Below, one piece after another: positions 12,001 to 15,000 of a stretch of DNA of 64,000 nt. Made by a program: the position numbers. Position 1 is the first letter of the stretch. Each line of letters opens with the position of its first letter. The stretch comes from Escherichia coli O127:H6 str. E2348/69 (lineage in GTDB: Bacteria > Pseudomonadota > Gammaproteobacteria > Enterobacterales > Enterobacteriaceae): NCBI RefSeq assembly GCF_000026545.1, contig NC_011601.1. One strand, written 5' to 3'.

Positions 12001-15000
12001 TTGAGATATCCGACGGCACAGGCAATGGCGATAGTCGCCAGATTGACCGTATCGGTTTTGAGTGTGCCATCGACCAGATATCCTTCCAGCACATCCAGAC
12101 TGCGGTTGATTTTCTCACGCTGACGTAACAATTCATCTTCAGACTGCTGCGCCGCCGGACGCGCCTGTTCACGCACCGATACCAGCCCGGCATCCATAAT
12201 GCCATCCGCCAGCGCCTCAATTTTGCGCACCCGCAACGACTCCAGCGGATCACGCGGCAACATCGCCGGAGCAACATTCATTAATTCAATATATTCAGCG
12301 ATGATCGGCGAATCAAACCAGCATTCGCCCTCTTCGGTCACCAGCACCGGCACTTTTCCTAACGGGTTAAATTGCGCCACGCCGTTATCCGCGTTATAGG
12401 GCAGTTCATTAATAAATTCGAACGTTATGCCCTTTTCTAACAACAGAATGGAAAGTTTGCGTACAAACGGGCTGGTGTAGCTACCGACGAGTTTCATGCC
12501 GAGTCCTTTGTGCGAGGAAAAATATCAGTATGGCTCAGGCTCGCGCAAAACACAGGTGATACAAGTCTCAATGATCCAAATAAAGATAATGCATCCAACT
12601 GGTCATTCTTAGCAGCACTTTCCGCATCACCGAAACATGGCTGAAATGGTCGGAGTAAACTGCCACCTGGGCGTAGATGCCGTCGGGTAAGGCATCGATA
12701 TCAGCGTTAGGGTCCAGTTCAATGGTTCCCAGCACACCGTCCGTGCCGGGCACGACCGTTAATGATTGCAATACCCCCTGCGCCTGATAAGAACCGCCTG
12801 GCACGACAGGTAAAATGCTGGTCAGTTTGCCGTGGAACACCTGCCCAGGTAGCGCGTTAAACACCACTTCCGCATCATCGCCGGGTTTCAGACGTAACAG
12901 CGAGTTTTGCCGAAATTGGGCGACAACTTGCCGTTTTTGCTCGGGGATGAAGACCATCACCGGACGCAGCGGCAAGGCAGCTGCGTATGTACCTGGGCGG
13001 ATCAGTACCTGAGTGACGTAGCCATTGCTCGGTGCGCGAATGACGGTCTGCTCAAGGTTATATTTTGCTTCTGTAAGTTGCGCTCTTAAGCTCACAATCT
13101 GCGATTGCTCGCCGTTAACCATACTGTCGAGCTGGCTCTGGATCTGCGCCTGCTCCGCCACCGAGCCTTTCACCAGCGCATCCTGCGCGAGGAAATTTTG
13201 CCGCGCATCGTCGATGTCACGTTCCGAGAACGGATTCACCGCCGCCTGGCTGCCTTTCAGATAACGTTGATAATTTTTAAACAGACGGTCGCGCTCCGCT
13301 GAAACCTGGGTGGTGTTGGCCTGCGCTTCAGTGAGCTGCGCGCGCAGCGTCTTTATATTATGCGTCGCCGTCATCAGGTCAGCCTGAAGCCTGTCAACTC
13401 GCGCCAGGTAACGAACCGGGTCGAGCTTAAAAAGCACCTCGCCCTTCTGAATAAGCTGATTATTTTTGTCGGTGACTTCAGTAACAATTCCCGTCACCTG
13501 TGGCGTGATGGGGATCGCTATCACTGCCTTTTGCGCGGTAAAAGTGTAAGGGTGGTTGTAGTTCATCAACAAAATCAAACCACTCACCAGAAACACGCCT
13601 CCCAGCGCCGCCGTCGCCAGCGTCCACTGATTCACCGGAATGCGGAAGATTTTAAAGACCGCCCACGCCAGCGCCACGTAAGTTAAAACAATCAATAGAT
13701 CCATTATTAGATCTCCGGGAACGTGGAATAGTCAGTCTTTTTCTCGGCGGCGAGTTGGTGCTCCAGCCGGGAAATCCGGTCAGAAAGTGCGGCGATTTCC
13801 GGGTCTGGCACGTCGCCTTGCGGCGCAACATGCGACTGCATGCCCCAGCCGCGCTCCGGTTGATAGAGCGTCGCCCAGATCCACAAAAACGGCCAGATAA
13901 CATGCAGAGTAAACAGGCTCACCCAGCCCGCCGTATGAATAGCGTCGGCATGGGGATGGTTGCGCTTTTTGGCAATCAGATAAGGGATGTCATGTATCGC
14001 GATGATTCCATAAAAAATCACCAGAAAGACGAAGATCAGCACTCCCAACGCGAAATAGTTTAGAAACATATCTGCCTCGGATTCACGTTTATCAGTGTTG
14101 TTTTTTGGCTGGCAGCCAGAAGGGAGTCAGGCTGATATTTTGACAATAATCCGGGTTCGCGATTCTCACCATAACACCAAAGAATAATTTTAAGAGGTGA
14201 TGAGTTGCTTAGTTACATAACGATTTCATGACGAAGGCATAACATGCTGTAGATCACATCAGGTGAACGCCGTAAGAAAATATCTTGTGATTCAGATCAC
14301 AAAGATTCAACAAACCATCAAAATAAAAATGTGACATAAGTCACATTTAAATGCCATTTTTAGCGAAAATCGCCGCCTTGTTGCTTTTTTACACAAGCAT
14401 TTTGTGATGAGTATCACGTCAATTACCTCTCTACCCCCTACATTTATGTGACTGATGTCACACAAAAGGCCGCCGACTGGACAGTTAACCGATTCAGTGC
14501 CAGATTTCGCAGTATCTACAAGGTCCGGCTACCTCTGCCGCCACATTAACAAAAAACCTCGGGCTTCCAGCCTGCGCGACAGCAAACATAAGAAGGGGTG
14601 TTTTTATGTCATCCGATATTAAGATCAAAGTGCAAAGCTTTGGTCGTTTCCTCAGCAACATGGTGATGCCAAATATCGGCGCGTTTATCGCGTGGGGTAT
14701 CATCACCGCGTTATTTATTCCAACAGGGTGGTTACCGAACGAAACGCTGGCGAAGCTGGTCGGGCCGATGATCACTTATCTCCTGCCGCTGCTGATCGGT
14801 TATACCGGTGGTAAGCTGGTAGGCGGCGAACGTGGCGGCGTAGTCGGTGCCATCACCACCATGGGCGTTATCGTCGGCGCAGATATGCCGATGTTCCTCG
14901 GCTCTATGATTGCAGGTCCGCTGGGCGGCTGGTGCATTAAGCACTTCGACCGCTGGGTAGACGGTAAGATCAAATCCGGTTTTGAAATGCTGGTGAATAA

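What the first reader, a model, noticed from the sequence alone, without database searches (positions are those of the whole stretch)
14286..14462. Dense array of CRP-type sites upstream of mtlA
Four near-consensus TGTGA-N6-TCACA sites occur within 180 bp upstream of mtlA. This matches the unusually CRP-rich mannitol promoter and is well preserved here.
Basis: seen in the sequence. Interest (0 to 1): 0.15.

Follow-up and report, generated by a model that had tools for sequence, protein, structure and literature searches.

The report
Known CRP-site array of mannitol operon
The four palindromes are real and are the well-studied cAMP-receptor-protein (CRP) binding sites that switch on the E. coli mannitol operon, so this is a correct but ordinary observation.

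Summary
TGTGA-N6-TCACA sites lie at 14286-14301, 14330-14345 and 14447-14462 (each 10/10 core matches) and at 14403-14418 (9/10). They are the only sites with one mismatch or fewer in the 64-kb window. The chance of such a cluster is about 6e-11.

The window is E. coli O127:H6 E2348/69. The sites lie in the yibI/mtlA intergenic region, upstream of an intact mtlA-mtlD-mtlR operon. Their centres are 44, 73 and 44 bp apart. This matches published sites CRP2-CRP5 of the K-12 mtl operator (Ramseier & Saier 1995; Lee et al., NAR 2026).

The published mechanism is as follows. cAMP-CRP at these sites activates a weak promoter. MtlR has no DNA-binding domain and represses by bridging CRP dimers 43-46 bp apart.

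My additions:
- All 16 sampled E. coli strains keep the 44/73/44 spacing.
- All 47 Enterobacterales loci with the full array keep 44/72-74/44.
- Across those loci the half-sites are 96% conserved and the N6 spacers 38%.
- The array travels with mtlA, not with yibI.

Verdict: already known, low interest. Minor unexplained details are an invariant ACAAA between CRP2 and CRP3 and two strain-private SNPs that perfect two palindromes.

The parts
14243..14258 (.). CRP1, the weak fifth CRP site (CATGCTGTAGATCACA, 7/10 core matches), centred 43 bp upstream of CRP2.
   Evidence: PWM 10.45 bits, rank 7 in the window. Its position and 7/10 match agree with Lee et al. 2026, who report it as unoccupied and dispensable.
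14286..14301 (.). CRP2 (TGTGATTCAGATCACA, 10/10), centre 14293.5, about -219.5 from the transcription start site (TSS).
   Evidence: Half-sites are invariant in the 47 Enterobacterales loci. Essential for activation in K-12 according to PMC13421365.
14310..14314 (.). ACAAA block at a fixed position in the otherwise variable CRP2-CRP3 gap, centred +18.5 bp from the CRP2 centre. Function unknown.
   Evidence: Present in 46 of 47 Enterobacterales loci.
14330..14345 (.). CRP3 (TGTGACATAAGTCACA, 10/10), centre 14337.5, about -175.5. In this strain the palindrome extends to 9-bp arms (AAATGTGAC/GTCACATTT).
   Evidence: PWM 20.2 bits, the top score in the window. The extended palindrome was picked up as 'terminator-like'.
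14385..14390 (.). Conserved T6 tract inside the 73-bp CRP3-CRP4 gap. Function unknown.
   Evidence: At least 80% conserved over the 47 loci.
14403..14418 (.). CRP4 (TGTGATGAGTATCACG, 9/10), centre 14410.5, about -102.5.
   Evidence: Essential for activation in K-12.
14447..14462 (.). CRP5 (TGTGACTGATGTCACA, 10/10), centre 14454.5, about -58.5. This is the promoter-proximal, class-I-like site.
   Evidence: Essential for activation in K-12.
14478..14483 (+). Inferred -35 hexamer TGGACA.
   Evidence: Inferred from the published CRP5 position of -58.5 and from conservation. Not seen directly in the paper's figure.
14485..14498 (-). Cra (FruR) operator-like sequence ACTGAATCGGTTAA between the -35 and -10 elements.
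   Evidence: Perfect match to RSTGAAWCSNTHHW (consensus recalled from memory). Cra is listed as a repressor of mtl in PMC13421365.
14498..14506 (+). Inferred extended -10 element: TG (14498-99), one base, then CAGATT (14501-06).
   Evidence: TG and AGA.T are 100% conserved in the 47 loci. The consensus promoter scan finds no promoter on the + strand, as expected for an activator-dependent promoter.
14513..14605 (+). Inferred TSS (about 14513, +/-2) and the 93-nt 5' leader, with the Shine-Dalgarno region GGGGTGTTTT at 14595-14604.
   Evidence: TSS calculated from the published -58.5. Conserved blocks. No Rfam family matches.
14606..16519 (+). mtlA, the mannitol PTS enzyme IICBA. Its dephosphorylated IIB domain sequesters MtlR.
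   Evidence: the mechanism is from PMC13421365.
16737..17885 (+). mtlD, mannitol-1-phosphate 5-dehydrogenase.
17885..18472 (+). mtlR, the repressor without a DNA-binding domain that docks on pairs of DNA-bound CRP dimers.
   Evidence: It has 0 amino-acid differences from K-12, and the CRP-contact residues R167 and L178 are present.

Best explanation
This is the operator-promoter of the mtlADR operon in E. coli E2348/69. When cAMP is high, CRP dimers occupy CRP2-CRP5. CRP5, at about -58.5, contacts RNA polymerase in a class-I-like manner. The upstream dimers are also required, and their role is probably architectural. Together they activate an intrinsically weak promoter (-35 TGGACA; extended -10 TG-n-CAGATT). 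Without mannitol, an MtlR dimer, which cannot bind DNA itself, bridges two CRP dimers whose centres are 43-46 bp apart (CRP2-CRP3 and CRP4-CRP5, both 44 bp here). This blocks the CRP-polymerase contacts. With mannitol, the dephosphorylated IIB domain of MtlA holds MtlR at the membrane and the operon is induced. With glucose, dephospho-HPr releases MtlR back to the operator. A Cra-type operator overlaps the core promoter. Shown here: the presence, quality, spacing and evolutionary conservation of the sites, and intact mtlA, mtlD and mtlR. Taken from the literature on K-12: CRP binding, the need for each site, and MtlR docking. Inferred: the positions of the TSS, -35 and -10 in window coordinates.
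For: The sites and their statistics are. The locus is identified. It is 98% identical to the K-12 operator, with all half-sites and spacings intact. The published map and mechanism give centres at -262.5, -219.5, -175.5, -102.5 and -58.5 and spacings of 43/44/73/44. MtlR supershifts only CRP pairs 43-46 bp apart, and CRP2, CRP4 and CRP5 are essential. MtlR is identical to K-12, and R167 and L178 are present. For conservation, a scan of 100,044 species' genomes for two perfect sites 43-46 bp apart returned 120 loci, of which 64 are visibly next to mtlA and 7 more are truncated copies of the same array. All 47 Enterobacterales loci with the full array show 44/72-74/44, with 73 in 45 of them. Only the first 44 was imposed by the search pattern. 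Mean identity to the window base is 0.96 at half-site positions, 0.38 in the N6 spacers and 0.52 in inter-site DNA. In all 16 diverse E. coli strains the spacing is invariant, and only one half-site SNP was seen. In 12 strains, nucleotide diversity (pi) is 0.003 at half-sites, 0.016 in other non-coding DNA and 0.072 at 4-fold degenerate sites of mtlA.
Against: No binding or expression data exist for this strain's own sequence. Its N6 spacers differ from K-12 at 8 of 24 positions, which could change affinity or bending. The MtlR-docking model rests on one 2026 paper, with an AlphaFold3 model rather than a solved complex. CRP5 at -58.5 is 3 bp away from the canonical class I position of -61.5, and the TSS comes from old S1 mapping. 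How the far-upstream sites activate is unresolved even in K-12. My PWM was built from sites recalled from memory.
Confidence: 0.93

Rival explanations
1. The array is only a multi-site CRP activation module (a class III promoter). The 44-bp spacing would reflect helical phasing for activation or DNA wrapping, and not a docking geometry for MtlR.
For: CRP2, CRP4 and CRP5 are each essential for activation in K-12, so selection for activation alone could conserve the positions. The 73-bp gap (about 7 helical turns) is conserved as tightly as the 44-bp gaps, although MtlR does not use it.
Against: EMSAs in PMC13421365 show MtlR supershifts only at spacings of 43-46 bp. A malK operator re-spaced from 34 to 44 bp gains MtlR binding, and MtlR R167E and L178A lose repression in vivo. 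A 43/44-bp pair occurs together with an mtlR homologue in Enterobacterales, Pasteurellaceae and Orbaceae wherever the locus is long enough to see it.
Confidence: 0.05
2. The sites mainly control the divergent yibI-yibH genes, or act as a shared bidirectional control region.
For: The array sits in a 536-bp divergent intergenic region. CRP1 and CRP2 are about 175-230 bp from the yibI start codon. The whole intergenic region is under purifying selection.
Against: Of 49 mtlA-linked loci with at least 1.2 kb of upstream sequence, only 11 contain a yibI homologue, yet all carry the array at a fixed distance from mtlA. No CRP site lies at a class I or class II distance from any obvious yibI promoter.
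Confidence: 0.02
3. The palindromes are chance matches or generic repeat or mobile-element ends with no regulatory role.
For: Short palindromes are common in intergenic DNA. CRP3 is even flagged as terminator-like.
Against: The cluster has a chance probability of about 6e-11. There are no other matches in the 64 kb. The half-sites are 96% conserved across 47 genera or species while the spacers are free to vary. The region is single-copy in 5,404 E. coli genomes.
Confidence: 0.005

Closest known systems
E. coli K-12 mtlADR operator with five CRP sites (Ramseier & Saier 1995, Microbiology 141:1901; Lee et al. 2026, NAR 54:gkag751, PMC13421365)
   Same: It is the same locus and the same gene order. 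The 541-bp intergenic region is 98% identical. All half-site bases are identical, the spacings are the same 43/44/73/44, and the MtlR protein is identical.
   Different: Eight of the 11 differences within 14286-14462 fall in the N6 spacers of CRP3, CRP4 and CRP5. Two SNPs private to this strain in my 16-strain sample (14340 C>G, 14457 A>G) make CRP3 and CRP5 more perfectly palindromic than in K-12. The effect on affinity is untested.
CytR-CRP repression complexes (for example deoP2)
   Same: A repressor acts through protein-protein contact with tandem DNA-bound CRP dimers. This is anti-activation on a CRP scaffold (discussed in PMC13421365).
   Different: CytR binds DNA itself, between CRP sites roughly 52-53 bp apart (that figure is my own recollection). 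Here the gaps are 44 and 73 bp. MtlR has no DNA-binding domain, and the spacing alone gives specificity.
malK/malE control region with four CRP sites
   Same: It is a multi-CRP-site class III regulatory region.
   Different: The adjacent malK sites used as the control (CRP2 and CRP3) are 34 bp apart and do not recruit MtlR unless re-spaced to 44 bp.
mtl operators of Salmonella, Vibrio, Pasteurellaceae and Orbaceae
   Same: All have adjacent CRP sites 43-44 bp apart upstream of mtlA (PMC13421365; my scan).
   Different: Pasteurellaceae have three perfect sites at 40/44 bp, or one pair at 43 bp. Orbaceae have a single 44-bp pair. The four-site 44/73/44 layout was found only in the Enterobacterales loci of this sample.

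Membership tests
cAMP-CRP (CAP) DNA binding site | Two-fold symmetric core TGTGA-N6-TCACA within a 22-bp site | tested here: met
   Three sites match 10/10 and one matches 9/10. All have the 6-bp spacer.
cAMP-CRP (CAP) DNA binding site | Position weight matrix score in the range of known sites and above background | tested here: met
   The sites score 14.3-20.2 bits and rank 1-4 in the window. The training sites score 4.5-17.1 bits. Maxima of shuffled windows average 13.1 bits with a highest value of 15.4, so two sites beat every shuffle and two beat only the average maximum. The matrix was built from sites recalled from memory, so it is approximate.
cAMP-CRP (CAP) DNA binding site | Physical binding by cAMP-CRP | not testable with these tools
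   Binding is published for the K-12 sequences, which have identical half-sites (EMSA in PMC13421365; Ramseier & Saier 1995 as cited there).
mtlADR operator of Enterobacterales | Located upstream of mtlA in an mtlA-mtlD-mtlR operon | tested here: met
   RefSeq annotation and NCBIfam scores above the cut-offs for all three proteins.
mtlADR operator of Enterobacterales | Centre-to-centre spacings of 43/44/73/44 bp for CRP1-CRP5 | tested here: met
   Centres lie at 14250.5, 14293.5, 14337.5, 14410.5 and 14454.5, matching. The same layout occurs in 47 of 47 Enterobacterales loci with the full array.
MtlR-CRP-DNA anti-activation platform (Lee et al. 2026) | Adjacent CRP sites 43-46 bp apart | tested here: met
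   CRP1-2 are 43 bp apart, CRP2-3 are 44 bp and CRP4-5 are 44 bp.
MtlR-CRP-DNA anti-activation platform (Lee et al. 2026) | A cognate MtlR with the CRP-contact residues R167 and L178 | tested here: met
   The translation shows R167 and L178, and there are 0 amino-acid differences from K-12.
MtlR-CRP-DNA anti-activation platform (Lee et al. 2026) | Formation of the ternary complex and MtlR-dependent repression | not testable with these tools
   Shown only for K-12, Salmonella enterica and Vibrio cholerae proteins and operators.
CytR-CRP nucleoprotein repression | Tandem CRP sites about 52-53 bp apart flanking a CytR operator | tested here: not met
   The spacings are 43, 44, 73 and 44 bp. The 52-53 bp criterion is from my own knowledge.
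Class I CRP-dependent promoter | Proximal CRP site centred near -61.5 (or one or more helical turns further upstream) of a weak sigma-70 promoter | tested here: inconclusive
   CRP5 is at -58.5 by the published TSS, 3 bp from the canonical position. The TSS is uncertain by a few bp. The core promoter is weak, since the consensus scan gives no + strand hit.

The most novel reading that the evidence does not exclude
The operator may hold constraints that the current CRP/MtlR model does not explain. First, an ACAAA pentamer is invariant in 46 of 47 Enterobacterales at a fixed place in the otherwise variable CRP2-CRP3 gap. It is centred 18.5 bp promoter-side of the essential far-upstream site CRP2. 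That is about where the alpha-CTD of RNA polymerase sits beside CAP in the Benoff 2002 complex, as I recall it. A conserved T6 tract lies in the 73-bp gap. Together these could mark an unrecognised protein-DNA contact (alpha-CTD, Fis or MtlR) or a required bend. Second, the central N6 spacers may evolve at or above the synonymous rate, and both operator-region SNPs private to E2348/69 perfect a CRP palindrome. That is the signature of quasipalindrome template-switch mutation or of selection for symmetric sites.
Probability: 0.2. Interest if true: 0.3.

Novelty: already known. Interest (0 to 1): 0.1.

Why it matters
As a scan finding it matters little, because it re-identifies one of the best-mapped CRP-dependent control regions in E. 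coli. The region has current relevance. A 2026 study showed that the 44-bp spacing of these sites is how a repressor without a DNA-binding domain finds its single target. The data collected here show that this geometry is invariant in an EPEC strain, in 16 diverse E. coli strains and in at least 47 Enterobacterales species, while the bases between the half-sites drift freely. This is independent comparative support for the spacing-recognition model.

Tried and rejected
1. Supplementary tables. I looked for the probe sequences of Lee et al. 2026 to fix the TSS exactly, but none are held as text. The TSS, -35 and -10 coordinates are therefore inferred from the published -58.5 and from conservation.

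2. Promoter and RNA scans. The consensus sigma-70 scan finds no + strand promoter. I read this as a weak, activator-dependent promoter and not as absence of a promoter. Its 'terminator-like' hit at 14327-14348 is simply the CRP3 palindrome followed by a T-run. The Rfam and tRNA scans find nothing in the leader or operator.

3. Hypervariable spacers. I tested whether the N6 spacers vary beyond the neutral rate. Between K-12 and this window the spacers differ at 8 of 24 positions (33%), against 9.7% at 4-fold sites (binomial P = 0.001). In 12 strains, 10 of 24 spacer positions are polymorphic against 23% of 4-fold sites (Fisher P = 0.04). I do not accept this as established. The strains were chosen by spread of identity over the operator itself, the choice of which spacers to count was made after seeing the data, and adjacent changes may be single events.

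4. Other loci with the same geometry. I checked whether perfect CRP pairs 43-46 bp apart occur at non-mtl loci. Seven apparent exceptions in Enterobacterales and Pasteurellaceae are truncated mtl loci. The remaining hits are tandem repeats in Tannerella and Treponema genome bins, or isolated pairs spread evenly over 43-46 bp in unrelated phyla. Six pairs in gammaproteobacterial genome bins have no informative neighbouring gene. I did not pursue them.

5. Rejected readings. yibI as the target of the array is rejected on synteny. A CytR-type architecture is rejected on spacing.
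Full report
**Observation.** The sequence at 14286-14462 contains four sites:
- TGTGATTCAGATCACA at 14286-14301
- TGTGACATAAGTCACA at 14330-14345
- TGTGATGAGTATCACG at 14403-14418
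- TGTGACTGATGTCACA at 14447-14462

Three match the TGTGA-N6-TCACA core at 10 of 10 positions and one at 9 of 10. They are the only matches with one mismatch or fewer anywhere in the 64-kb window. With the base composition of the intergenic region, 0.006 such sites are expected in 177 bp, so the probability of four or more is about 6e-11.

I ran one with a symmetric 22-bp matrix built from 16 classic CRP sites that I recalled from memory, so it is approximate. The four sites take ranks 1-4 in the window, at 20.2, 16.9, 14.3 and 14.3 bits. The best site elsewhere scores 11.5 bits. Maxima of shuffled windows average 13.1 bits, with a highest value of 15.4.

**Where it is.** The window is E. coli O127:H6 strain E2348/69, with 100% identity over the region. 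The region is single-copy and chromosomal in 5,404 of 5,426 complete E. coli genomes. The sites lie in the 536-bp gap between yibI (13707-14069, minus strand) and mtlA (14606-16519, plus strand). mtlD (16737-17885) and mtlR (17885-18472) follow mtlA. All three Mtl proteins score above the NCBIfam cut-offs.

**Identity with the known operator.** The intergenic region is 98% identical to K-12 MG1655, and no difference touches a half-site or changes a spacing. The site centres are 14293.5, 14337.5, 14410.5 and 14454.5, which gives spacings of 44, 73 and 44 bp.

Lee et al. (NAR 2026, PMC13421365) cite Ramseier & Saier 1995 for the five sites. They place CRP1-CRP5 at -262.5, -219.5, -175.5, -102.5 and -58.5, with spacings of 43/44/73/44.

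CRP1 falls at 14243-14258 (CATGCTGTAGATCACA). It matches 7 of 10 core positions, as the paper states, and scores 10.45 bits.

From the published -58.5 I infer the following in window coordinates:
- a transcription start site (TSS) near 14513
- a -35 hexamer TGGACA at 14478-14483
- an extended -10 element, TG at 14498-14499 and CAGATT at 14501-14506

The TG and most of the hexamer are invariant in 47 Enterobacterales loci. The consensus promoter scan finds nothing on the plus strand, as expected for an activator-dependent promoter. A perfect match to the Cra consensus (recalled from memory) lies at 14485-14498 on the minus strand, between the two promoter elements. This fits the reported repression of mtl by Cra.

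**How it works (taken from the literature on K-12).**
- *Activation.* cAMP-CRP occupies CRP2-CRP5. CRP1 stays empty and is dispensable. Mutating CRP2, CRP4 or CRP5 abolishes expression and growth on mannitol, and mutating CRP3 has a mild effect.
- *Repression.* MtlR has no DNA-binding domain. It supershifts only DNA that carries two CRP dimers 43-46 bp apart, with an optimum of 44-45 bp. A malK operator re-spaced from 34 to 44 bp gains MtlR binding. MtlR R167E and L178A lose both binding and repression.
- *Induction.* Dephosphorylated EIIB(Mtl) sequesters MtlR at the membrane. Dephospho-HPr competes for the same surface and restores repression when glucose is present.

In this window MtlR is identical to the K-12 protein, and R167 and L178 are present. 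All components of the circuit are therefore intact.

**Comparative evidence gathered here.** I scanned one genome from each of 100,044 species for two perfect sites 43-46 bp apart.
- 64 loci have mtlA visibly adjacent. Seven more, from Enterobacterales or Pasteurellaceae, are truncated copies of the same array.
- mtlA-linked pairs are spaced 44 bp (62 pairs) or 43 bp (3 pairs). Pairs in the other loci spread over 43-46 bp.
- All 47 Enterobacterales loci with the full array, from Escherichia to Budvicia, Pectobacterium, Pantoea and Serratia, show 44/72-74/44. The middle gap is 73 bp in 45 of them. Only the first 44 was imposed by the search pattern.
- Pasteurellaceae carry three perfect sites at 40/44 bp, or a single pair at 43 bp. 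Orbaceae carry one pair at 44 bp. An mtlR homologue follows mtlD wherever the locus is long enough to see it.
- Across the 47 loci, mean identity to the window base is 0.96 at half-site positions, 0.38 in the N6 spacers and 0.52 in inter-site DNA.
- Only 11 of 49 loci with at least 1.2 kb of upstream sequence contain a yibI homologue. The array therefore belongs to mtlA and not to yibI.

**Variation within E. coli.** I fetched 14 strains spread across the identity ranking and added K-12 and the window, giving 16 operators. All 16 keep 44/73/44. Only one half-site SNP was seen, in strain M159-1, where the left half of CRP2 reads TGCGA.

In 12 strains with the full mtlA sequence, nucleotide diversity (pi) by site class is:
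- 0.003 at half-sites
- 0.016 in other non-coding DNA
- 0.072 at 4-fold degenerate sites of mtlA
- 0.132 in the N6 spacers of CRP2-CRP5

The control region outside the spacers is thus far more constrained than synonymous sites (P = 7e-11). The spacers are at least as free as synonymous sites.

The apparent excess in the spacers is not established. In favour of it, 8 of the 17 K-12/E2348 differences in the intergenic region fall in 24 bp of spacer, and the Fisher test gives P = 0.04. Against it, I picked the strains by divergence in this very region, I chose which spacers to count after seeing the data, and adjacent changes may be single events.

**Unexplained details.**
- *Conserved gap elements.* ACAAA at 14310-14314 is present at a fixed position in 46 of 47 Enterobacterales, within an otherwise free CRP2-CRP3 gap. 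It is centred 18.5 bp on the promoter side of CRP2. A T6 tract at 14385-14390 is conserved in the 73-bp gap. Lee et al. state that the gaps share no sequence similarity. The position of ACAAA resembles that of the alpha-CTD next to CAP in the Benoff 2002 complex. This is my inference from memory and is untested.
- *Private SNPs.* In the 16-strain sample, the SNPs private to E2348/69 at 14340 (C>G) and 14457 (A>G) both convert TGTGAC...xTCACA into TGTGAC...GTCACA. CRP3 thereby gains 9-bp arms. This could reflect quasipalindrome template switching or selection for symmetric sites. Only seven of 5,404 genomes are at least 99% identical over the operator.

**Rivals.**
- An activation-only array cannot explain the spacing-dependent MtlR supershifts, or the co-occurrence of 43/44-bp pairs with mtlR across three bacterial orders.
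- A yibI-directed array is contradicted by synteny.
- Chance is excluded by the cluster statistics and by conservation.
- A CytR-type arrangement fails on spacing.

**Verdict.** The feature is the textbook mtl operator, already mapped and recently explained mechanistically. The novelty rating is 'already known' and the interest is low.

Noticed in passing
In K-12 it is reported as unoccupied and dispensable.
   Followed up: yes
window 14485-14498 (-) and 32741-32754 (-): There are perfect matches to the Cra/FruR consensus RSTGAAWCSNTHHW (4 in the window against 0.5 expected). One lies between the inferred -35 and -10 of the mtlA promoter. Another lies 49 bp upstream of the gpmM start codon.
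   Followed up: partly
window 14310-14314 and 14385-14390: ACAAA is present in 46 of 47 Enterobacterales at a fixed place in the otherwise variable CRP2-CRP3 gap, 18.5 bp from the CRP2 centre. A T6 tract is conserved in the 73-bp CRP3-CRP4 gap. Neither is explained by the published CRP/MtlR model.
   Followed up: partly
window 14340 and 14457: Two SNPs seen only in E2348/69 among the 16 sampled strains (C>G and A>G) both fall on the base just 5' of TCACA. Both make the site a more perfect palindrome (TGTGAC...GTCACA), and CRP3 gains 9-bp arms. This is either a quasipalindrome template-switch signature or selection for symmetry.
   Followed up: partly
window 14335-14340, 14408-14413, 14452-14457: The N6 spacers of CRP3-CRP5 are highly polymorphic in E. 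coli. In the 12-strain sample the CRP4 spacer has 6 alleles and CRP3 and CRP5 have 4 each, while the CRP2 spacer is invariant. Spacer diversity is 0.13-0.18 against 0.072 at 4-fold sites. The strain sample was biased towards operator divergence, so an excess over neutral is not established.
   Followed up: partly
L137 (E. coli GPEC1054) and L130/L143 (E. coli M159-1): GPEC1054 has an IS21 element (istA) inserted upstream, ending near window position 14270. This removes CRP1 and everything beyond it but keeps CRP2-CRP5. M159-1, from a pangolin, carries TGCGA in the left half of CRP2, the site reported as essential, so mannitol induction might be impaired.
   Followed up: no
L016, L051, L069, L070, L097, L098, L113 (Pasteurellaceae); L005, L035, L039, L050, L066, L100 (Orbaceae): Pasteurellaceae mtl operators have three perfect CRP sites spaced 40/44 bp. 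Others in the family (L071, L114) have one pair at 43 bp, and L108 has three sites at 41/43 bp. Orbaceae (Gilliamella) have one pair at 44 bp. mtlR homologues (30-43% identity) follow mtlD. The four-site 44/73/44 layout was seen only in Enterobacterales.
   Followed up: partly
window 12497-12568, 19908-24680, 5794-7089: Gene content differs from K-12. yibF abuts yibH with no yibG-yibU block between them. A frameshifted YadA-like autotransporter pseudogene sits between yibL and lldP. A Fic-family gene lies between aldB and yiaY; whether K-12 has it was not checked.
   Followed up: no
window 16520-16736: The mtlA-mtlD intergenic region is GC-rich and full of palindromes, resembling REP elements. 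It is 217 bp here against 229 bp in K-12, with a 14-bp indel and a small 2-bp length difference.
   Followed up: no
window 54546-54584 (-): There is a JUMPstart RNA element (Rfam RF01707, 55 bits). Its position within the LPS core (waa/rfa) gene cluster is my inference, because the annotation fetched stops at window position 50000.
   Followed up: no
L047-L049, L063, L082-L085 (Tannerella genome bins), L074-L075, L111-L112 (Treponema genome bins): Perfect TGTGA-N6-TCACA pairs outside Gammaproteobacteria are mostly tandem repeat arrays, for example with a 23-bp period in Tannerella. They are unrelated to CRP or mtl.
   Followed up: no
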